This document shows, one piece after another, positions 1-9,248 of a stretch of 64,000 nucleotides of DNA. The position numbers and the translations under genes were made by a program. Origin of the DNA: an uncultured Candidatus Saccharibacteria bacterium (lineage in GTDB: Bacteria > Patescibacteriota > Minisyncoccia > Ryanbacterales > GWA2-47-10b). Below the pieces are notes generated by a model that had not been told where the DNA came from, searched no databases, and saw only the letters and a list, made by a program, of their open reading frames with translations. Location of the stretch: positions 19,982 to 83,981 of the forward strand of contig CAYHJF010000002.1 of NCBI GenBank assembly GCA_964356915.1, read 5' to 3'. The first letter of the stretch is position 1, and each line of letters begins with the position of its first letter.

Positions 1-649
1 TATTGATCCCGATACTGTTGCTCCCAGCAATCTTTCTCGGCAGACTTTTTTTGTTGAGGAAGATATCGGGGAGGCTAAGGTAAGGACAGTAAGGAAACGC
101 GGCCTTGCCATTAATAGCAGGATTAGTATTAGGCCTGTGCAACGGTTGATTACTTCACCTCGTGATCTGCGACCGTTTGTAAAAAATACAACTCTTGTGA
201 TTAACTGTTCTGATTATCCTGATGTTTCAGTAACTAATGATATTGTTTCTCGAGCTTGCTTCACATACGGTATCCCGCACATTCTTTGCGGAGGATACGA
301 TGGCCACTTGAGCTTTGTTGGGCAGACGGTTATTCCATATCAAAGCTCTTGCTGGAGATGCTATGTTGAGGGAGGGATTTATGAAAAATATTTGAACGGG
401 TTTACCTACATGGCTATTACCAAAAGTTCCGTCGAGGGGGGAACCCTTGCGCCGATTGCTTCAATGACTGCCAACATTCACGCTTTGGAAGCTTTAAAGG
501 TAATTACGGGTTATGCCGAACCAACAATGCTCAACGCCAAAGCTGAATTGGACTTTTCGTCCCTTGCATTGACTAAAACCACTATTCCAAAAAACAAATA
601 TTGTTCTCTTTGCGGAAAGAGCGTAAAAAAAAGGAGGAGAAAGAAATGA
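1..649 (+). CDS. ThiF/MoeB-family E1-like adenylyltransferase, 5' end outside window
   Basis: In-frame translation from the window edge gives NLSRQTFFVEEDIGEAKV (ThiF motif SNLNRQ...G..K). C-terminal zinc-type cysteine pairs CWRC and CSLCGK are present. The frame is open to position 2, so the first ATG at 137 is not the true start. Confidence 0.7.
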   Translation, partial: IDPDTVAPSNLSRQTFFVEEDIGEAKVRTVRKRGLAINSRISIRPVQRLITSPRDLRPFVKNTTLVINCSDYPDVSVTNDIVSRACFTYGIPHILCGGYDGHLSFVGQTVIPYQSSCWRCYVEGGIYEKYLNGFTYMAITKSSVEGGTLAPIASMTANIHALEALKVITGYAEPTMLNAKAELDFSSLALTKTTIPKNKYCSLCGKSVKKRRRKK

Positions 650-1851
650 GATATCAGGTTTCTCGGTTTGTAGTGGCAACTGATCCCCAGAGTGGAATTA
701 TTCAGCACACGAAGACAGGAAATCGACTATTGGTATCTGAAGAAACATTAAAACTTCTTAGTTTGTTTTCGAAGCCGAAAACTTTTGAAGAAGTTTTATC
801 TCGCACTTCTTCTGATGAGAACGGGAGATTGGAGATAGCTGGGTTTCTAGAGCAGTTGGCTAAGGAAAAAATTCTTGTTCCCGAAGAAGAAACCGAAGAA
901 CGAATAAATTGGGGAGTGCTTACTGACAAAGTTCTTGTCGAGAGCCCTTTGAGAACATTCTTTAGTTGTCCCCGGAGAAGTCTCGCGGCGCTCGAAGATG
1001 AAGATATTGTTTTTCTCGGAGTGCCATTCGACTTGGGTACGACGGGATACCCAGGTGCACGTTTCGGACCTGATAAGATGAGGGAGCTTTCCTCAGATGC
1101 ATTTGAATACCATACGGATATCTTTACAGGGAAATGCAAAGGATGGTTCAGCTCGGGGCGAAACAAGACGATACTTGAAGGCGTGAAAATGGTAGATGTC
1201 GGGAACGTACTTCTTCAAGTAGGGGAGAGCTTTGAAAGGTTCTACAATCGGGTTGATCAAGTGATTCGTCAGATCATTGTTCACGGTTGCTTTCCCGTCA
1301 TTGTCGGTGGTGATCATTCGTGTAGTTACCCAATTCTCCGCGCGATGAAAGAGCAATACGGGAGTGTATCAGTTATTCACATTGATGCACATACAGATCT
1401 CGGAGAAACCATTCCTAATGTTTCAAATAACCATGGGAATGTCTTCACGAGAGTAAGAGAAGAAAACTTAGTACGTCATCTGCATCAGTTTGGAATACGA
1501 GGATGCATCGGCAAGAAACTGATTGCTGCCGATTACTCGCTACACACACTTGAAGATTTAAAACGGGATGGCGTTGAGAAGGTGGTCGCCTCTCTTAATC
1601 AGAGTCAGCCATATTATCTCAGTCTTGATATTGACGTGCTCGATCCCGCGTTTGCTCCAGGAACTGGGACTCCCATAACAAACGGGATGACCCCTGAAAT
1701 GCTTTTCGCTCTTCTATCATCAGTCGCTGGGAGAGTCAAACTAATTGGATGTGATGTTGTAGAGGTAAACCCAATGCTAGACAGAAATAACCAAACAAGC
1801 GAGCTTGCGCTTAGCACCATATTCCATATTTTGAGTGAGGTCTTTAGATGA
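646..1851 (+). CDS. PqqD-like RRE domain fused to arginase/agmatinase-family ureohydrolase
   Basis: Strong SD (aaggagg) sits upstream of the ATG at 646. The N-terminal ~100 aa has a PqqD/RRE-like winged-helix pattern (VVATDPQSGIIQHTKTGNRLLVSEETLKLL...FEEVL). The C-terminus carries arginase-fold Mn motifs: GGDHS, DAHTDL and SLDIDVLDP. Confidence 0.7.
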   Translation: MRYQVSRFVVATDPQSGIIQHTKTGNRLLVSEETLKLLSLFSKPKTFEEVLSRTSSDENGRLEIAGFLEQLAKEKILVPEEETEERINWGVLTDKVLVESPLRTFFSCPRRSLAALEDEDIVFLGVPFDLGTTGYPGARFGPDKMRELSSDAFEYHTDIFTGKCKGWFSSGRNKTILEGVKMVDVGNVLLQVGESFERFYNRVDQVIRQIIVHGCFPVIVGGDHSCSYPILRAMKEQYGSVSVIHIDAHTDLGETIPNVSNNHGNVFTRVREENLVRHLHQFGIRGCIGKKLIAADYSLHTLEDLKRDGVEKVVASLNQSQPYYLSLDIDVLDPAFAPGTGTPITNGMTPEMLFALLSSVAGRVKLIGCDVVEVNPMLDRNNQTSELALSTIFHILSEVFR

Positions 1852-1962
1852 TCTTTATCCGAGGGGCATATACAAATGTATATGCTTTTTTAATATAACG
1901 CATCTTATTTTTTTGAATATCATCCTTCCCAGAGGGGATATATTTTAAACCATGTTATCGGT

Positions 1963-2211
1963 ATGACTCCGGAAGAATGCACGAATCTTTTTCAAAAATT
2001 TGTACGCGGACAAGAACAAAAGAAATCTCATACTGAAGGACTCGGTCTTGGTCTCTATGTTGCAAAGCTTATCGCGCAAGCGCATGGTGGCGATCTTTTT
2101 GCCACCTCGGTGGGTAAAGGAAAGGGGAGTACATTTCATCTCGTACTACCGATCATCCAACCGACCTCTCCTGCAACAACAAAATCCACAGAACCCTTGA
2201 AAAATATATAA
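1963..2211 (+). pseudogene. C-terminal remnant of a sensor histidine kinase (HATPase_c G2 box only)
   Basis: The 82-aa ORF carries GLGLGLYVAKLIAQAHGG and GKGSTF (HK ATP-lid motifs). An in-frame stop at 1891 leaves no HisKA domain upstream. Confidence 0.5.
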
Positions 2212-2259: not shown

Positions 2260-4041
2260 ATGCAAATACCTAAATTTAATACAACCCGTCTTCACCTTAT
2301 AACAAAATATCTTGCACTTTATAAGCGAGAGGTATCTTTGTTAATCGCACTTTCTTTATTGGCAGCGTTTTTTGGCGCGCTTACTCCATACATTGGCGGC
2401 AAAATTATCGATAGCCTTATCAAGCCAATTAGCACTGTCCGAGGCTATATATTACCCGTAGCTCCTGTATTTTTCTTTTTTGGTCTGTGGCTCACGATGC
2501 AGATTTTAATTAATATCGTGGAGTCAATGCTTGGGTATCGTAATCGAATGCTCGATGAAAAAATCTTTGCTGACTATATCGTTATGGGTACGTCGCACGT
2601 GATCAATTTACCGATGTCATTTCATAAGGCAAAGAAAGTGGGTGAAATCCAAAATCGCCTTCAAACTGCCGCACAGAATCTTTCGACTATCGTGACCAAT
2701 GTCATGGTAACTTTGCTGCCTCAATTTTTGAGTATCGCGATCGCACTCGTAGTCACATTACTTGTGAAGCCTATTTTAACTCTTTTCTTACTTATTTCAG
2801 TTTCGATCTACGTTGTAATTATTTTTAAGTCAGGACCTCACTACAGTAAACTGTTGCGTAAAATGTGGAAAGCCTATAATCAAGCGTTCGGTGATGCTTA
2901 TGACGCCGCGATGAACGCGCATTCAGTCAAACAGGCGGGAGCAGAGCAATACGAGCGTAGACGACTCTACAAGAGCTTTCATCTAAAAGCTCTTCGCTAT
3001 ATGAAAGAAATGACGTTTGTCTGGCAAATCATGAATTCAGCTCAACGAGTTCTTGCGACCCTTACACAGGGAACGATTTATTTAGTTTCAATTTATTTTA
3101 TCAATCAAGGATCTATGACGGTCGGTGAACTCGTCATGTTTAATGGATATGTTGCATTGTTTCTTGGACCCTTTGTCATACTCATGAATAATTGGCATGT
3201 AGTACAAAATGGCCTTGTAACACTTGAGCGCGCCGAAAAGATTTTACGTGAAATACCCGAAGAGTATGATAATGAGAATTCAACTCTTCTACCAGATATT
3301 ACGGGGGCAGTAGAATTCCGTGATGTGAATTTTACCTATGGCCGTAAGCAAAAGGTTGTGTTACAAAACATCTCATTTCAAACTCGTCCAGGAGATGTCA
3401 TAGCACTTGTAGGTGAGTCTGGTGTAGGTAAATCAACGATGATGGATTTGGTATCACGGTATTTCATTGCGAGTAAAGGGAAGGTTTTGGTTGATAACCA
3501 TGATGTTAAAAATCTAAACTTACGCTTCTTACGAAGTAAGATCGCAGTTGTGCCTCAAGAAATCTTACTATTCAACGACACAATCAAGAACAACATTAAA
3601 TATGGCAGTTTTAATGCAAGTGATGAGCAGATAGAAGAAGCGGCACGGCTCGCTTATGCAGATCAGTTTATCACCGAATTTCCCAAGGGATACAAACAAA
3701 TCGTAGGTGAACGTGGAGTAAAACTTTCTGTTGGGCAAAAACAGCGTATCGCGATTGCACGAGCTATTTTACGTAACCCACGAATCCTTATTTTAGATGA
3801 GCCCACCTCAGCACTCGACGCGAAATCAGAAAAACTTGTTGAGGATGCTTTGCGTACACTCATGAAAGGACGTACGACATTTATCATTGCTCATCGTCTC
3901 TCGACTGTACGTCATGCTAATAAAATCCTTGCTCTTGAGAAGGGAAAGATTGTTGAACAGGGGACGCATGACGAACTTATGAAAATTCAAGACGGTGCAT
4001 ACCGTAAACTTTACGAGCTGCAAATCGGACTCACAGGATAG
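2260..4041 (+). CDS. ABC exporter, fused permease and ATPase (MsbA-like)
   Basis: Six-TM N-terminal half. Walker A GESGVGKST, signature LSVGQKQR, Walker B ILILDEPTSALD, H-loop IAHRLS. Confidence 0.9.
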   Translation: MQIPKFNTTRLHLITKYLALYKREVSLLIALSLLAAFFGALTPYIGGKIIDSLIKPISTVRGYILPVAPVFFFFGLWLTMQILINIVESMLGYRNRMLDEKIFADYIVMGTSHVINLPMSFHKAKKVGEIQNRLQTAAQNLSTIVTNVMVTLLPQFLSIAIALVVTLLVKPILTLFLLISVSIYVVIIFKSGPHYSKLLRKMWKAYNQAFGDAYDAAMNAHSVKQAGAEQYERRRLYKSFHLKALRYMKEMTFVWQIMNSAQRVLATLTQGTIYLVSIYFINQGSMTVGELVMFNGYVALFLGPFVILMNNWHVVQNGLVTLERAEKILREIPEEYDNENSTLLPDITGAVEFRDVNFTYGRKQKVVLQNISFQTRPGDVIALVGESGVGKSTMMDLVSRYFIASKGKVLVDNHDVKNLNLRFLRSKIAVVPQEILLFNDTIKNNIKYGSFNASDEQIEEAARLAYADQFITEFPKGYKQIVGERGVKLSVGQKQRIAIARAILRNPRILILDEPTSALDAKSEKLVEDALRTLMKGRTTFIIAHRLSTVRHANKILALEKGKIVEQGTHDELMKIQDGAYRKLYELQIGLTG

Positions 4042-4080
4042 TTTCCAATAAAGCCTTATTTTGCTACCATATAGAGCAAT

Positions 4081-5472
4081 ATGGCTCGTATTCATATCTC
4101 GGAAACTCCAACTCAGATAGGTAAAAGTGTTGAATTAGCAGGGTGGGTAGACAATCGTCGCGATCATGGAAAATTGATCTTTTTAGATTTGCGCGATGAG
4201 TCGGGCATGGTTCAAATGGTTGTCCCCGGACAAAACACCGAGCTTTTTGCCGTGGCAGATAAACTTCGCTCCGAATGGGTCATTCTCATTGAGGGCTTAG
4301 TAAAGGAACGGCCAAAGGGAATGCAAAATGCCAATATTCCAACGGGTACAGTGGAGATTGAAGTTACAAAAGTTGAGATTTTGAGCTCTGCAGAAACCCC
4401 ACCGATAGATATCGCAGGAGATGGATATGAGATAGGGGAAGAGGTACGACTTGAGTATCGCTATTTAGATTTGCGCAGAGCTCGGCTTCAAAAAAATCTT
4501 CGCCTGCGCTCAAAGCTTACCCACGCACTTCGTGAGTACTTAACAGTAAAAGATTTTGTTGAAATCGAAACGCCCTATCTAACAAAATCGACTCCGGAAG
4601 GATCTCGTGACTTTCTAGTGCCTTCCCGCATGCAGCCCGGAAAATTTTATGCGCTTCCACAAAGTCCTCAACAGTACAAACAACTCCTCATGGCGAGTGG
4701 ATTTGAAAAGTATTTTCAATTTGCGCGTGCAATGCGAGACGAAGACTTACGCGCAGATCGTGCCTTTGAGCACACACAGCTCGATATGGAGATGGCATTT
4801 GTTGGGCGTGAAGATGTATTGAAGCTTATCGAGGAGATGATGATTGCAGTTGTAGAAAAACTTGGTTTTACTATTAAAGAAAAACCGTTCCCACGCTTTA
4901 GTTATAAAGAAGCGCTGGAAAAATTTGGTGCAGACAAATTTGATCTCCGTACGCCAGAAGAAAAAGCAGCAAACGTACAAGCATTTGCATGGGTTTTAGA
5001 TTTTCCATTTTTTGAGGCAACTGAGGGAGGATGGACGTTTAGTCACAATCCATTTTCAGCAGCAATGCCAGAGTCACACAAAGACTTGATGGCAAAAACC
5101 AATATTGAAAATATTGTTGCCGCTCAATATGACCTCGTGCTCAATGGATTTGAAGCGGGGGGAGGGAGTGTTCGAGAACATCGTCCGGAGGTGCTCAAAG
5201 CGGCACTTGAAATCATGGGTTTTGCTCCTGAAAAAATTGAATCAGAATACGGTCATATGATGAAAGCATTTTCTCATGGAGTTCCACCGCACGGAGGACT
5301 CGCGGTCGGCCTCGACCGTCTTGTGATGTGCCTTTTGGGTGAGACGGCCATTCGAGAGATCCAAGCATTTCCCATGACAGCGGGCGGCAAGACTGCCGTG
5401 ATGGATGCGCCGTCTGAAGTAACGGACGCGCAGCTTAAAGAAGTCGGTTTAGAATTACGAAAGAAAAAATAA
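4081..5472 (+). CDS. aspS: Aspartyl-tRNA synthetase, short archaeal-type without GAD insertion
   Basis: Class IIb motifs QSPQQYKQLLM, FARAMRDEDLRADRAFEHTQLDMEMAF and GGGSVREH. The 463-aa length fits the non-discriminating type. Confidence 0.8.
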   Translation: MARIHISETPTQIGKSVELAGWVDNRRDHGKLIFLDLRDESGMVQMVVPGQNTELFAVADKLRSEWVILIEGLVKERPKGMQNANIPTGTVEIEVTKVEILSSAETPPIDIAGDGYEIGEEVRLEYRYLDLRRARLQKNLRLRSKLTHALREYLTVKDFVEIETPYLTKSTPEGSRDFLVPSRMQPGKFYALPQSPQQYKQLLMASGFEKYFQFARAMRDEDLRADRAFEHTQLDMEMAFVGREDVLKLIEEMMIAVVEKLGFTIKEKPFPRFSYKEALEKFGADKFDLRTPEEKAANVQAFAWVLDFPFFEATEGGWTFSHNPFSAAMPESHKDLMAKTNIENIVAAQYDLVLNGFEAGGGSVREHRPEVLKAALEIMGFAPEKIESEYGHMMKAFSHGVPPHGGLAVGLDRLVMCLLGETAIREIQAFPMTAGGKTAVMDAPSEVTDAQLKEVGLELRKKK

Positions 5473-7245: not shown

Positions 7246-8152
7246 GGGAGCTCTCGCATTACTCATCGCTTTAGCGGGCGCTCTTGATGCGCGCCTCCCT
7301 TCGTTATCACGCGCGACTCTTGCATCCGCAAGCCCGATACTGATGTCCGTTCATACAGAAGTACGTATCCCTAATTCTGTAACGGCAAAAAGTATTTTAA
7401 TAACAGATATCGATACCGATAACGCTGTTGTTGAACGACGTGAACGTGAACGACTCCCTATCGCGAGTCTCACAAAAATCATGCTCGCGCACGTCGCCTT
7501 GAAAAACCTCGATCCCGAACAAGAAATTACCATCAGCAAAACCGCGATCAATACTATCGGAGATGAGATCGGACTTCGAGAGGGGGAGGTCATCACTCTT
7601 CAAGATCTCTTGCGCGCCATGATGATTTCTTCATCAAATGATGCAGCTGTAGCAGTCGCTGAGAGTATCGGAGAGCACTTTGGTGCATCAGATCATGGCA
7701 CTCAAATTAAGCGCACCCTCGAAGAGATGAATGGTGTCGCGCGAGCGTTAAATATGAATCAAACAAGTTATCGAGACGTTGTCGGTCTCGATATTGATTT
7801 TGTTCGTGGAATACCAAGTAATTTTTCAAGTGCTGAAGATTTACTTCGATTAGTCCGCGCAACACTTTCTCAAACACCACTCGTCTGGGATGTATCACGT
7901 GACTCGGAGGCAACTATATATTCTTTAGGTGGCCGAGCGCATCACTTAGTGCATACCAACTCGCTGGCATCACAAATTCCTCATCTTATTGGCACAAAAA
8001 CTGGATCAACACGAAGTTCCGGAGAATCACTTGTTATTTTATATCATCATCCATCGGGTCATCGAGAAGCACTAATTTTACTCGATGCTGAAGAAGGAAA
8101 GCGCATTGAGGAAGCACAATCCCTCCTCGAACAGTTCCTAGATCTGCTATAA
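7238..8152 (+). CDS. D-alanyl-D-alanine carboxypeptidase (S11, PBP5-like)
   Basis: SxxK ASLTK, SxN SSSND, KTG(T/S) KTGST. N-terminal signal peptide. Confidence 0.75.
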   Translation: MIKGALALLIALAGALDARLPSLSRATLASASPILMSVHTEVRIPNSVTAKSILITDIDTDNAVVERRERERLPIASLTKIMLAHVALKNLDPEQEITISKTAINTIGDEIGLREGEVITLQDLLRAMMISSSNDAAVAVAESIGEHFGASDHGTQIKRTLEEMNGVARALNMNQTSYRDVVGLDIDFVRGIPSNFSSAEDLLRLVRATLSQTPLVWDVSRDSEATIYSLGGRAHHLVHTNSLASQIPHLIGTKTGSTRSSGESLVILYHHPSGHREALILLDAEEGKRIEEAQSLLEQFLDLL

Positions 8153-8159
8153 TAAACAT

Positions 8160-9248
8160 ATGGCAGAAAGTCAGGTTTTTCTCGATGTACTTAAAGTTTT
8201 CGGCCTCGTAAGTTTTTCATTTTTTACAGCTTTTTTCTTGACGCCAATTTTAACGCATTACCTCTATAAATATGAACTCTGGCCAAAGAAAACTGATCGC
8301 AATGCGCTTTCTGGTGAACACGCTTCTGTTATTTCAAAACTAGTAAAAGAACGGTCAAAACCTGAGACGCCGCGCATGGGAGGGATCTTGATTTGGGGAA
8401 CAACGATTTTAGTAACACTTTTCTTTTGGCTTCTCGCGGGACTATCTGACCGATCTATTTTCATAAAATTAAACTATCTCTCACGATCTCAAACGTGGCT
8501 TCCATTTGCAGGCCTCATTGCTTCGGCACTCGTCGGACTTGCTGATGATTGGTTTCAGATCAAAGGCAAGGGACGATATGTAGGCGGCGGCATTGAACTA
8601 AGTTTTCGAATCGGACTTGTCTGCATTATCGGAGCAGTCGGTGCATGGTGGTTTTATGGTCCACTTGGCATGCGTGAAATTATGATTCCATTTTATGGAC
8701 CACTCTATCTCGGCATACTCTTCATACCGTTTTTTATGCTTACGATGCTTGCCGTATTTAGTTCAGGTGTCATCGATGGGCTTGATGGTCTTGCAGGGGG
8801 AGTCTTAAGCTCGATTATCGCGGCATATGGTGCCATCGCTTTTTTTCAACAACAGCTCGATCTTGCCGCGTTCCTCGGTGTGATTGGTGGAGCGCTACTA
8901 GCATTTCTCTGGTACAACATTCCTCCCGCACGATTTTACATGGGTGAGTCTGGCATGCTCGGGTTAACAACAGTTTTAACAATCGTTGCTTTTTTAACAC
9001 AAGCGGTTGTCGTACTGCCAATCATCGCATTTCCACTCGTCGTGGAAGCAGGATCTGATATTATACAAGTAGCCTCGAAAAGATGGCGTGGAAAGAAAGT
9101 ATTTCTCGCCGCTCCAATTCACCATCATTTTGAGGCAAAAGGATGGCCACACTATAAGGTAACGATGCGATTTTGGATTGTCAGTACGGTCACAGCAATT
9201 GTTGGTATGGTCGTGCATCTCATTGGTAGCGTAGTTCGTTTTTTCTAA
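8160..9248 (+). CDS. mraY: Phospho-N-acetylmuramoyl-pentapeptide transferase
   Basis: Polytopic membrane protein. DD motif LADDWF. Conserved APIHHHFEAKGW segment. Confidence 0.85.
   Translation: MAESQVFLDVLKVFGLVSFSFFTAFFLTPILTHYLYKYELWPKKTDRNALSGEHASVISKLVKERSKPETPRMGGILIWGTTILVTLFFWLLAGLSDRSIFIKLNYLSRSQTWLPFAGLIASALVGLADDWFQIKGKGRYVGGGIELSFRIGLVCIIGAVGAWWFYGPLGMREIMIPFYGPLYLGILFIPFFMLTMLAVFSSGVIDGLDGLAGGVLSSIIAAYGAIAFFQQQLDLAAFLGVIGGALLAFLWYNIPPARFYMGESGMLGLTTVLTIVAFLTQAVVVLPIIAFPLVVEAGSDIIQVASKRWRGKKVFLAAPIHHHFEAKGWPHYKVTMRFWIVSTVTAIVGMVVHLIGSVVRFF

What the first reader, a model, noticed from the sequence alone, without database searches (positions are those of the whole stretch)
1..1851. 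ThiF-like E1 enzyme adjacent to an RRE-arginase fusion: candidate peptide-arginase (Arg to Orn) RiPP module
The second gene fuses an N-terminal PqqD-like RiPP-recognition-element-type domain to a complete arginase/agmatinase-fold domain with the Mn-binding motifs GGDHS, DAHTDL and DIDVLDP. It lies 4 nt after a ThiF/MoeB-family E1-like adenylyltransferase with CxxC zinc motifs. E1-like enzymes and RRE-containing tailoring enzymes are hallmarks of ribosomal-peptide modification. Arginase-fold peptide arginases that convert Arg to ornithine in RiPPs are known, but an RRE fusion would be unusual. The precursor peptide would be upstream of the window.
Basis: inference. Interest (0 to 1): 0.6.

Follow-up and report, generated by a model that had tools for sequence, protein, structure and literature searches.

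The report
Arginine-rich peptide modification gene cassette
The two genes are the enzyme half of a small, apparently undescribed gene cassette that most likely modifies a conserved 30-residue arginine-rich peptide, and the gene publicly annotated "agmatinase" is probably a peptide-directed arginase.

Summary
Window 1..649 is the last 215 codons of a 368-aa ThiF-family gene. Window 646..1851 encodes a 401-aa protein with an N-terminal RRE-fold domain fused to a complete Mn-arginase domain (Pfam PF00491). The genes overlap by 4 nt; they are not 4 nt apart.

I recovered the sequence upstream of the window from the public contig. It carries a 31-aa ORF, MKKIDPKKLSIRKLSALIDKCGLRGLRRPRA, then a hairpin, 77 nt before the ThiF start.

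A degenerate DNA pattern for this peptide found 9 places in two public collections. All 9 are followed by ThiF and fused-arginase homologues. Twelve distinct loci share the C-terminal core xRG[LIV][RH]R[PR]RA-stop, with 231 synonymous against 46 non-synonymous codon differences.

The ThiF model matches MccB and PaaA over its full length, N-terminal peptide-binding domain included. A GNAT acetyltransferase and a C39 peptidase recur nearby.

Best reading: a new ribosomal-peptide (RiPP) family. The ThiF enzyme adenylates the peptide's C-terminal alanine and the fused arginase converts core Arg to Orn. Capture of the adenylate by Orn to form a lactam is my inference only.

The arginase is not OspR-type (PF12640). 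The nearest precedent is KgrD. I found no description in the searchable literature.

The parts
1..649 (+). C-terminal 215 codons of a 368-aa MccB/PaaA-type ThiF-like adenylyltransferase. The N-terminal RRE-like domain and the GxGxxG motif lie upstream of the window.
   Evidence: Pfam ThiF E 8.8e-28. The full gene is at L001 8898..10004. The best PDB sequence hit is MccB, E 2e-28. The AlphaFold2 model (pLDDT 92.3) matches MccB over about 365 columns and PaaA over 350, but MoeB and ThiF over only about 263. The Zn CxxC pairs are at nt 350-361 and 602-613.

Upstream of the window, in L001 coordinates (window position = L001 minus 9355): precursor ORF 8726..8821, hairpin about 8840..8876, GNAT gene 8084..8614.
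646..975 (+). N-terminal RRE (PqqD-like winged-helix peptide-recognition) domain of the fused protein, aa 1-~110.
   Evidence: AlphaFold2 on a 35-sequence alignment gives E3-5, E9-13, E18-21, E27-29, H32-42, H47-53, H58-73. Foldseek top hits are TbiB1 5v1v (E 3e-3, probability 1.0, target TM 0.73), TigE 8vpo and the MccB clamp. A profile against PDB sequences hits the N-terminus of 8vpo at E 1.8e-4. hhalign against the ThiF N-terminal domain gives probability 88%.
1003..1830 (+). Arginase/agmatinase-fold (ureohydrolase) catalytic domain, aa 120-395, with a complete binuclear-Mn ligand set.
   Evidence: Pfam PF00491 E 4.9e-68. TIGR01230 agmatinase scores 187.4 bits against a cut-off of 174.3. 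H224, D247, H249, D251, D328 and E373 are invariant, and D330 and D333 are conserved in at least 90%, of 55 fused homologues. Motifs: GGDHS nt 1306-1320, DAHTD nt 1384-1398, DIDVLD nt 1627-1644.
1960..2160 (+). Downstream copy of a ~200-nt direct repeat (the 3' end of a histidine-kinase gene) that bounds the four-gene cassette.
   Evidence: blastn shows 94.5% identity over 201 nt between L001 7650-7850 (the end of the intact 554-aa kinase gene upstream of the GNAT) and L001 11315-11515, which is window 1960-2160. The 82-aa HATPase_c fragment ORF at window 1963..2211 matches Pfam PF02518 profile positions 49-109 only.

Best explanation
The two genes are the enzymes of a compact RiPP (ribosomally synthesised, post-translationally modified peptide) cassette: [GNAT] - precursor peptide - hairpin - ThiF - RRE-arginase.

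The precursor is 30-56 aa. It has an N-terminal recognition stretch, consensus (I/L)Dx(K/R)K(L/V)SIxxL, and an almost invariant C-terminal core xRG(L/I/V)(R/H)R(P/R)RA.

Both enzymes carry their own N-terminal RRE domain and so probably both dock on the leader. The MccB/PaaA-type ThiF enzyme uses ATP to adenylate the only conserved carboxylate, the alpha-carboxylate of the terminal alanine. The fused Mn-ureohydrolase removes urea from one or more of the invariant core arginines (positions -8, -4, -2), leaving ornithine.

The step I only infer is that an ornithine delta-amine then attacks the C-terminal acyl-adenylate to close a macrolactam. This would parallel the Cys thiolactone (GrcB) and the Trp indolylamide (IndF) made by other RiPP ThiF enzymes.

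The GNAT would acetylate an amine of the product, either as tailoring or as self-protection. The small C39 peptidase would remove the leader.

Shown: gene content, domain folds, catalytic residues, peptide conservation and gene linkage. Inferred: that the arginase acts on the peptide, that the C-terminus is the adenylation site, the lactam, and the roles of the GNAT and C39.
For: 1. Precursor peptide. A 31-aa ORF with a strong Shine-Dalgarno sequence sits 77 nt upstream of the ThiF start. It was called as a gene on a second assembly of the same sequence.

2. Linkage, peptide to enzymes. A degenerate pattern for the peptide gave 3 hits in genome contigs and 6 in metagenome contigs. All 9 are followed by ThiF (45-100% identity) and fused-arginase (51-100% identity) homologues. 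My own estimate of chance matches is about 1e-4.

3. Linkage, enzymes to peptide. Look-ups starting from arginase or ThiF homologues down to about 38% identity recover the same triad and the same core.

4. The peptide is translated and under selection. Over the 8-residue core in 10 loci, codon pairs are 83 identical, 231 synonymous and 46 non-synonymous.

5. A hairpin of differing sequence (-19 to -37 kcal/mol) follows the stop codon in all 10 loci.

6. Both enzymes have RRE-type N-terminal domains.

7. The ThiF looks catalytically competent. GxGxxG, D155, D157, N163 and K179 and four Zn cysteines are invariant, and R166, Q167 and D224 are at least 90% conserved, in 55 homologues. The arginase Mn ligands are conserved in the same way.

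8. The L021 precursor has no Asp or Glu at all, so the C-terminus is the only conserved carboxylate. The core has no conserved Cys, Ser, Thr, Lys or Trp, so Arg or Orn is the only conserved side-chain nucleophile.

9. GNAT recurs in 5 of 11 loci. C39 recurs in 4 of 11, and also in L021 and L022.

10. Precedents. ThiF-like RiPP enzymes adenylate peptide carboxylates that side chains then capture (PMC12596934). A PF00491 arginase, KgrD, acts on a RiPP (PMC12703449).
Against: - There is no biochemical evidence of any kind.
- The catalytic domain scores above NCBI's agmatinase equivalog cut-off, so on sequence alone it looks like a small-molecule enzyme.
- The Pfam PqqD model does not detect the N-terminal domain; only 1 of 35 members matches, at E 0.01. 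The Foldseek E-values for the RRE are modest (3e-3), although the hit list is homogeneous.
- Ala as the C-terminal residue differs from every characterised ThiF-RiPP substrate.
- The ring size and the identity of the nucleophile cannot be deduced.
- GNAT and C39 are absent from several loci, although some of those contigs are short.
- No dedicated exporter is conserved.
Confidence: 0.7

Rival explanations
1. It is a RiPP cassette, but with different chemistry, in one of two forms. In the first, the arginase does not act on plain arginine: it acts on an intermediate made by the ThiF enzyme, for example a C-terminal acyl-guanidine formed when Arg(-2) attacks the Ala adenylate, and hydrolysis leaves an N-acyl-urea. 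In the second, the product is a microcin-C-like peptidyl-nucleotide 'Trojan horse', and the RimJ/RimL-type GNAT serves as the immunity enzyme.
For: - MccB is the closest solved relative of the ThiF by both sequence and fold.
- The GNAT is of the RimJ/RimL type. Its best NCBIfam hit is the GNAT domain fused to an isoleucyl-tRNA ligase.
- The peptide gene followed by a hairpin recalls the mccA-mccB arrangement, as I remember it.
- KgrD, the only characterised PF00491 peptide arginase, needs a pre-modified arginine (PMC12703449).
Against: - All characterised microcin-C-type precursors end in Asn, whose side-chain amide is required for N-P bond formation. Here the terminal residue is an invariant Ala.
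- The PDB sequence search with the GNAT at E <= 0.001 listed no MccE entry.
- No MccC, MccD or MccF equivalents are conserved.
- I know of no precedent for hydrolysis of an acyl-guanidine by an arginase-fold enzyme.
Confidence: 0.17
2. This is ordinary metabolism. The second gene is a free-substrate agmatinase or guanidino-acid hydrolase for polyamine or nitrogen metabolism, as publicly annotated. The first is a MoeB/ThiF sulfur-carrier activase. The upstream small ORF is meaningless.
For: TIGR01230 (agmatinase equivalog) scores 187.4 bits against a cut-off of 174.3. The best PDB sequence hits are guanidinobutyrase and agmatinases. NCBI names the protein 'agmatinase'.
Against: - Both proteins carry extra N-terminal RRE domains, which are absent from SpeB, MoeB and ThiF.
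- No ThiS or MoaD, and no thiamin, molybdopterin or polyamine genes, lie within 10 kb.
- The small ORF is conserved at protein level with a large synonymous excess. It predicts the enzyme pair in 9 of 9 pattern hits.
- C39 peptidases recur next to the pair.
Confidence: 0.03
3. The small ORF is a regulatory leader peptide. A run of Arg codons followed by a terminator hairpin would form a ribosome-mediated attenuator that tunes expression of an arginine-catabolic operon to arginine supply.
For: There are four or five Arg codons in the last eight, and a terminator-like hairpin follows directly in every locus.
Against: - In L017 the peptide gene is on the opposite strand, divergent from the ThiF-arginase pair, with its own terminator. 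It therefore cannot attenuate them in cis.
- Conservation extends well beyond the Arg codons: the leader motif, and the invariant Gly and terminal Ala.
- The attenuator idea does not explain peptide-binding domains on both enzymes.
Confidence: 0.03
4. The ThiF protein is only a leader-binding scaffold for the arginase and has no catalysis of its own, like the E1-like partner of YcaO cyclodehydratases.
For: ThiF-like proteins recruited purely for their RRE are known in azoline-peptide (LAP) pathways (PMC12596934).
Against: The nucleotide-binding and catalytic residues of the adenylation domain are invariant or conserved in at least 90% of 55 homologues. The arginase already carries its own RRE, so a scaffold would be redundant.
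Confidence: 0.05

Closest known systems
KgrD, the PF00491 Mn-arginase of enteropeptin biosynthesis (Enterococcus cecorum). Cited through PMC12703449; the primary paper, Clark et al. 2022 Nat Chem, is not held.
   Same: It is a conventional arginase-family (PF00491) enzyme encoded in a RiPP cluster, and it converts a peptide arginine to ornithine.
   Different: KgrD works in a radical-SAM sactipeptide pathway and needs a thiomorpholine-modified arginine. Here there is no radical-SAM gene, the partner is an MccB-like ThiF, and the enzyme carries a fused RRE. I could not obtain the KgrD sequence, so I made no direct comparison and do not know whether KgrD has an RRE.
OspR-type peptide arginases (Pfam PF12640: OspR, FlmR, OhkR, PbsE)
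   Same: The proposed reaction is the same (peptidyl-Arg to Orn plus urea), on the same overall ureohydrolase fold, with Mn dependence.
   Different: It is a different Pfam family. The motifs are DXHXD / EEH(N/H)EAF / LDIDLDYFSC rather than GGDHS / DAHTD / DIDVLDP. OspR has no fused RRE and is a homodimer with a dimerisation domain (PMC10028609, PMC12703449). The window protein gives no PF12640 hit even at E <= 1.
MccB (microcin C7) and PaaA (pantocin A): RiPP ThiF-like adenylyltransferases with an N-terminal RRE 'peptide clamp'
   Same: These are the best sequence and structural matches to the ThiF over its full length. They share the RRE plus adenylation-domain architecture and the Zn CxxC pairs, and their genes lie beside the precursor gene.
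   Different: Identity is only about 22%. MccA is a heptapeptide ending in Asn, and PaaP is modified at internal Glu-Glu. Here the precursor is 30-56 aa, ends in Ala, and is paired with an arginase.
GrcB (thiolactone), IndF (indolylamide) and EnfB (cyclic imide): ThiF-like macrocyclases (PMC12596934, PMC12150305)
   Same: The logic I propose is the same: adenylation of a peptide carboxylate, then intramolecular capture, in small clusters containing an RRE-ThiF enzyme.
   Different: Their nucleophiles (Cys, Trp, a backbone amide) are present in the ribosomal peptide. Here the only conserved candidate would first have to be made by a second enzyme. I made no sequence comparison with these proteins.
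Selidamides (kamptornamide, phaeornamide): RiPPs in which a GNAT acylates ornithine made by a peptide arginase (PMC8784127, cited)
   Same: An arginase and a GNAT co-occur in a RiPP cluster, with ornithine as a handle for N-acylation.
   Different: Those pathways use OspR-type arginases, proteusin-type or Nif11-type precursors, and fatty-acyl GNATs. Here the GNAT is a small RimJ/RimL-type enzyme and is present in only about half of the loci.

Membership tests
Arginase/ureohydrolase family (Pfam PF00491) | Match to the family HMM above the gathering score | tested here: met
   230.1 bits against a cut-off of 22, E 4.9e-68, profile positions 2-277 of 280.
Arginase/ureohydrolase family (Pfam PF00491) | Six His/Asp ligands of the binuclear Mn centre, in the GGDHS, DAHxD and SxDxDxxDP motifs | tested here: met
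   GGDHS, DAHTD and DIDVLDP are present. H224, D247, H249, D251 and D328 are invariant, and D330 is conserved in at least 90%, of 55 homologues.
OspR-type peptide arginase (Pfam PF12640) | [quoted passage not shown] | tested here: not met
   No PF12640 hit at E <= 1. The motifs are those of conventional arginases; the family definition is taken from PMC12703449 and PMC10028609.
OspR-type peptide arginase (Pfam PF12640) | Hydrolyses arginine residues within a precursor peptide | not testable with these tools
   This needs an enzyme assay. The genetic context supports a peptide substrate.
Agmatinase SpeB (NCBIfam TIGR01230 equivalog) | HMM score above the curated cut-off | tested here: met
   187.4 bits against a cut-off of 174.3, over residues 112-394 only.
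Agmatinase SpeB (NCBIfam TIGR01230 equivalog) | Single-domain enzyme of about 300 aa in a polyamine or arginine-catabolic context | tested here: not met
   The protein has an extra 110-aa RRE domain. There are no polyamine genes within 10 kb. The gene is always paired with an RRE-ThiF gene and a conserved peptide gene.
RiPP recognition element (PqqD-like RRE) | Fold: a three-stranded antiparallel sheet followed by three helices (winged helix), structurally similar to known RREs | tested here: met
   The predicted topology fits. Foldseek hits at probability >= 0.8 are all RRE-containing RiPP proteins: TbiB1, TigE, MccB, lasso B1 and LynD. CteB and SuiB follow at lower probability.
RiPP recognition element (PqqD-like RRE) | Match to the Pfam PqqD model (PF05402) | tested here: not met
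   Only 1 of 35 family members matches, at E 0.01. A profile search of the PDB does find the TigE N-terminus at E 1.8e-4 and TbiB1 at E 0.2.
RiPP recognition element (PqqD-like RRE) | Binds the leader region of the cognate precursor | not testable with these tools
   This needs a binding assay or a complex prediction. A conserved leader motif does exist.
RiPP ThiF-like adenylyltransferase (MccB/PaaA type) | Two-domain architecture: N-terminal RRE plus an E1-like adenylation domain | tested here: met
   The model (pLDDT 92.3) aligns to MccB over 360-375 columns and to PaaA over 350, but to MoeB and ThiF over only about 263.
RiPP ThiF-like adenylyltransferase (MccB/PaaA type) | Intact nucleotide-binding and catalytic residues, and the Zn CxxC pairs | tested here: met
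   G131, G133, G136, D155, D157, N163, K179, C270, C273, C354 and C357 are invariant. R166, Q167 and D224 are conserved in at least 90%.
Microcin C-type RiPP | Precursor ends in Asn, which is needed for the succinimide and the N-P bond | tested here: not met
   All 12 precursors end in Arg-Ala.
Enteropeptin-type (KgrD) pathway | PF00491 arginase acting after a radical-SAM thiomorpholine-forming step | tested here: not met
   No radical-SAM gene occurs in any of the ThiF-type loci.

The most novel reading that the evidence does not exclude
This is a previously unrecognised RiPP class, found mainly in Patescibacteria (candidate phyla radiation) metagenome bins. A leader-guided conventional-fold arginase manufactures the nucleophile (ornithine) that an MccB-like ThiF enzyme then uses to close a C-terminal macrolactam on an almost invariant cationic core, RGLRRPRA. 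This would be a new two-enzyme macrocyclisation logic and a new reaction type for ThiF-like enzymes. It would also make RRE-fused PF00491 arginases a third, portable family of peptide arginases, used in at least three different cluster types: with ThiF, with radical-SAM and acyltransferase-like genes, and with JmjC.
Probability: 0.3. Interest if true: 0.8.

Novelty: new variant of a known kind. Interest (0 to 1): 0.62.

Why it matters
Ornithine-forming peptide arginases are sought as tools for peptide engineering. So far they are essentially one family (OspR type) plus a single, restricted PF00491 case (KgrD). A leader-guided PF00491 arginase with its own recognition domain would be a new, modular way to install ornithine.

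ThiF-like RiPP enzymes are a small set with five known reaction types, so a new substrate class ending in Ala would extend that chemistry.

The cassette is only about 3.2 kb: the peptide and two core enzymes, plus a GNAT in about half of the loci. It can therefore be tested directly by synthesis and co-expression.

The finding also flags a systematic mis-annotation. These genes are deposited as "agmatinase" and "molybdopterin/thiamine biosynthesis adenylyltransferase".

It would also be one of few defined peptide natural-product pathways in the reduced genomes of Patescibacteria.

Tried and rejected
- **Asp side chain as the adenylation site.** I considered an Asp-Orn isopeptide, as in graspetides. 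I rejected it because the L021 precursor has no Asp or Glu at all, and the Asp position shifts between clades.
- **Cys as the nucleophile (thiolactone).** Rejected because the Cys in DKCG is replaced by Val, Ala, Arg or Tyr in other loci.
- **Microcin-C link through the aspartyl-tRNA synthetase gene.** That gene lies two genes downstream (window 4081..5472). It and the ABC transporter lie outside the repeat-bounded cassette and are absent from the other loci, so I treat the adjacency as coincidence.
- **Pfam scan of the N-terminal domain.** Uninformative.
- **PDB profile search with the ThiF N-terminal domain.** It returned only generic winged-helix regulators (CAP), plus PqqD at E 0.09. The full-length fold search settled the question instead.
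- **Primary enteropeptin paper.** Not held, so KgrD could not be compared directly.
- **Literature searches.** Searches for ThiF plus arginase, E1-like plus ornithine or macrolactam, and RRE plus agmatinase or ureohydrolase found no description of this system. The library lacks most subscription-journal papers, so absence there is not proof of novelty.
Full report
**1. What is in the window**

Frame 2 of the + strand is open from the window edge to a TGA ending at 649. It gives 215 aa that match Pfam ThiF (E 8.8e-28, profile positions 50-237 of 238). The window edge therefore cuts the gene.

An ATG at 646 lies 8 nt downstream of AGGAGG and overlaps that stop codon (ATGA). It opens a 401-aa ORF ending at 1851. 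Residues 120-395 match Pfam Arginase PF00491 (E 4.9e-68), and residues 1-110 match nothing in Pfam.

The only correction is that the genes overlap by 4 nt rather than being separated by 4 nt.

**2. Recovering the missing upstream sequence**

An exact-sequence look-up of the 401-aa protein found the source contig. It is JBBTQU010000010.1 of assembly GCA_038065535.1, a Patescibacteria-group metagenome bin. A second, independent assembly of the same sequence was also found. Window position 1 is L001 position 9356.

Upstream of the window, in order, lie:

- a 554-aa histidine kinase gene;
- a 176-aa GNAT (Acetyltransf_3) gene;
- a 31-aa ORF (L001 8726..8821) with a strong ribosome-binding site, encoding MKKIDPKKLSIRKLSALIDKCGLRGLRRPRA;
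- a 17-bp-stem hairpin;
- the start of the 368-aa ThiF gene at 8898.

No thiamin, molybdopterin, sulfur-carrier or polyamine genes lie within 10 kb on either side.

**3. Is the small ORF real?**

Three independent lines say it is.

(a) Look-ups from fused-arginase homologues at 41-52% identity gave the same order, peptide then ThiF then arginase, with the same C-terminal peptide sequence.

(b) I back-translated the peptide motif into a degenerate DNA pattern and scanned two public collections. That gave 3 hits in 596 Gb of species-representative genomes and 6 in JGI metagenomes. By tblastn, all nine are followed directly by a ThiF homologue (45-100% identity) and a fused-arginase homologue (51-100% identity). 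One hit is the same ENA contig as L002. By my own estimate the pattern carries about 54 bits, so roughly 1e-4 chance matches were expected.

(c) I compared codons across ten loci over the eight core residues. Pairs are 83 identical, 231 synonymous and 46 non-synonymous. The protein sequence is what is being kept.

More distant clusters, with ThiF and arginase at 38-40% identity, carry longer and different leaders but the same core:

- L017: ...VYMRGLRRPRA
- L022: ...IYMRGLRRRRA
- L021: ...VQARGVRRRRA

. In L017 the peptide gene is on the opposite strand.

The core consensus over 12 distinct loci is x-R-G-(L/I/V)-(R/H)-R-(P/R)-R-A-stop. A shared leader motif, (I/L)Dx(K/R)K(L/V)SIxxL, is visible in both leader types.

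A hairpin of unrelated sequence (-19 to -37 kcal/mol) follows the stop codon in all ten loci examined, often with a T-run. This is the arrangement typical of precursor genes that are transcribed in excess over their maturases.

**4. The fused arginase**

About 58 of the best 120 database homologues share the ~400-aa architecture. In an alignment of 55 of them, the Mn ligands and the catalytic Glu are invariant or conserved in at least 90%.

I modelled the N-terminal 112 residues from a 35-sequence alignment. The model has pLDDT 73.7 and strands at 3-5, 9-13, 18-21 and 27-29, followed by helices at 32-42, 47-53 and 58-73.

Foldseek against the PDB returns almost only RiPP recognition elements:

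- the lasso-peptide leader binders TbiB1 (E 3e-3, probability 1.0, target TM 0.73) and 6jx3;
- the radical-SAM maturase TigE;
- the MccB peptide clamp;
- LynD, CteB and SuiB.

A sequence profile also finds the TigE N-terminus (E 1.8e-4) and TbiB1 (E 0.2). The Pfam PqqD model itself does not detect the domain.

The catalytic domain is not of the OspR type. There is no PF12640 hit, and the motifs are the conventional ones. OspR-type enzymes carry DXHXD / EEH(N/H)EAF / LDIDLDYFSC (PMC12703449, PMC10028609). The domain scores above NCBI's agmatinase cut-off, which explains the public name "agmatinase".

An agmatinase-like pocket does not need the substrate's alpha-carboxylate. That is compatible with an arginine side chain presented from a peptide, but this is my inference.

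A search with the RRE profile alone against 1.84 billion representative proteins found 164 proteins at E <= 1e-3. Most are ~400 aa, which is the fusion length, and the rest are stand-alone 85-125-aa proteins. The family is therefore real but small.

**5. The ThiF**

Its best solved relative by sequence is MccB (E 2e-28), ahead of MoeB, ThiF and PaaA.

The full-length AlphaFold2 model has pLDDT 92.3. It aligns to MccB over 360-375 columns and to PaaA over 350 (TM 0.74/0.83). It aligns to MoeB and ThiF over only about 263 columns. The N-terminal ~95 residues are therefore the MccB/PaaA-type peptide-binding domain.

hhalign relates this domain to the arginase RRE (probability 88%, E 3e-6).

The residues that bind nucleotide and Mg, and the four Zn cysteines, are invariant or conserved in at least 90% of 55 homologues. 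This argues for a working adenylyltransferase rather than a scaffold. The subfamily has about 80 clusters at 90% identity, almost all 355-375 aa, and none carries a specific name.

**6. Accessory genes and mobility**

All-against-all comparison of ORFs from 11 loci shows only four recurrent families:

| Family | Loci |
|---|---|
| Fused arginase | 11 of 11 |
| ThiF | 10 of 11 (the eleventh, L003, keeps only a 33-aa ThiF remnant) |
| RimJ/RimL-type GNAT | 5 of 11 |
| Small stand-alone C39 peptidase | 4 of 11, and also L021 and L022 |

The GNAT's solved relatives include PA3944, RimJ and SpeG; the search listed no MccE entry. From memory, PA3944 acetylates a diaminobutyrate of polymyxin.

In the window's genome the four-gene cassette is bracketed by a direct repeat. 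This is 201 nt of the histidine-kinase 3' end at 94.5% identity, at L001 7650-7850 and at window 1960-2160. The repeat leaves the 82-aa HATPase_c fragment ORF at window 1963..2211.

That is a signature of insertion or recombination, and it delimits the cassette. The ABC transporter and aspartyl-tRNA synthetase genes further downstream lie outside it and are not conserved elsewhere.

**7. How it most likely works**

Known RiPP ThiF-like enzymes adenylate a peptide carboxylate, which an internal nucleophile then captures. The known cases are the MccB succinimide and phosphoramidate, the GrcB thiolactone, the EnfB imide and the IndF indolylamide (PMC12596934).

Here the only conserved carboxylate is the C-terminal Ala, because the L021 precursor has no acidic residue at all. 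The core has no conserved Cys, Ser, Thr, Lys or Trp. The only conserved side chains with nucleophilic potential are the arginines.

An arginase with its own leader-binding domain sits in the same operon, translationally coupled to the ThiF. The most economical model is therefore:

1. Both enzymes dock on the leader.
2. The arginase converts one or more of Arg(-8), Arg(-4) and Arg(-2) to ornithine.
3. The ThiF adenylates Ala.
4. An ornithine delta-amine closes a macrolactam. Attack from position -4 would give a 15-membered ring.

I put the RiPP assignment at about 0.85, Arg-to-Orn conversion on the peptide at about 0.7, and the lactam at about 0.3.

Alternatives within the RiPP frame are treated as rivals: the arginase acting on a ThiF-made acyl-guanidine, or a peptidyl-nucleotide product with the GNAT as immunity. 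The invariant terminal Ala argues against the microcin-C mechanism, which needs Asn.

I also considered and largely excluded two non-RiPP readings. The first is ordinary agmatinase plus MoeB metabolism. The second is an Arg-codon attenuator. The opposite-strand peptide gene in L017 and the RRE domains on both enzymes argue against the attenuator.

**8. Comparison with the known, and novelty**

The nearest functional precedent for the arginase is KgrD of the enteropeptin pathway, a PF00491 enzyme acting on a RiPP (PMC12703449). That pathway is radical-SAM based, and I could not compare sequences.

The nearest relatives of the ThiF are MccB and PaaA.

Two 2025 reviews of ThiF-like RiPP enzymes were checked: in one, searches for ornithine, lactam and guanidine terms found nothing, and for the other the arginase count in the search listing was zero. 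A 2025 structure-based RRE survey does not mention arginase, agmatinase or ureohydrolase. Four full-text searches found no description of this combination. The library is incomplete, so this is absence of evidence only.

I rate the finding as a new variant of a known kind: a new candidate RiPP family and a new architecture for a peptide arginase. It is built from known parts and follows known RiPP logic.

Noticed in passing
window 1960..2211, and L001 7650..7850: The 82-aa HATPase_c fragment ORF just after the arginase gene is a near-duplicate (94.5% over 201 nt) of the 3' end of the intact histidine-kinase gene upstream of the GNAT. The four-gene cassette therefore sits between direct repeats, which looks like an insertion or recombination scar.
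   Followed up: partly
L007 3155..6227 and L018 2483..5278: More distant RRE-arginase fusions (33-36% identity) sit in a different cluster type. It has small ORFs with a shared leader motif TELEDRLE and Cys/Arg-containing cores, an uncharacterised 430-460-aa protein, Lip_A_acyltrans-like proteins, and (in L007) a radical-SAM enzyme. This may be a second, lipopeptide-like RiPP family that uses the same fused arginase.
   Followed up: partly
L020 714..4396 and L019 4102..6949: A third context for the fused arginase places it next to JmjC_2 (cupin hydroxylase-like) genes. L020 also has a 58-aa ORF ending ...VGRAVGRSFGGAIGRS, and L019 has a 122-aa DUF8299 protein.
   Followed up: no
L003 4887..6730: In one genome (GCA_003056085.1) the ThiF gene has decayed to a 33-aa remnant matching only its C-terminus, while the fused arginase is intact. 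It is flanked by a methyltransferase and a C39 peptidase. I looked for a precursor ORF only in the ~300 nt just upstream of the arginase and listed none.
   Followed up: partly
window 2260..5472: An MsbA/bacteriocin-exporter-like ABC transporter (593 aa) and the aspartyl-tRNA synthetase gene follow the cassette. This is suggestive, given that microcin C targets AspRS. However, both lie outside the repeat-bounded cassette and are not conserved in the other loci, so the adjacency is probably coincidental.
   Followed up: partly
L009, L010, L005: Near-identical or related cassettes sit in bins labelled Methylococcaceae and Candidatus Woesearchaeota. The Woesearchaeota copy is 88% identical to the Patescibacteria protein. 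L005 has very GC-rich sequence just upstream of the cassette. These could be binning errors, chimeric contigs or horizontal transfer.
   Followed up: no
window 646..1851: The public annotation of this protein is 'agmatinase', and it passes NCBI's TIGR01230 equivalog cut-off (187.4 against 174.3 bits). The homologous ThiF proteins are named molybdopterin/thiamine biosynthesis adenylyltransferases. Both names are probably misleading for this clade.
   Followed up: yes
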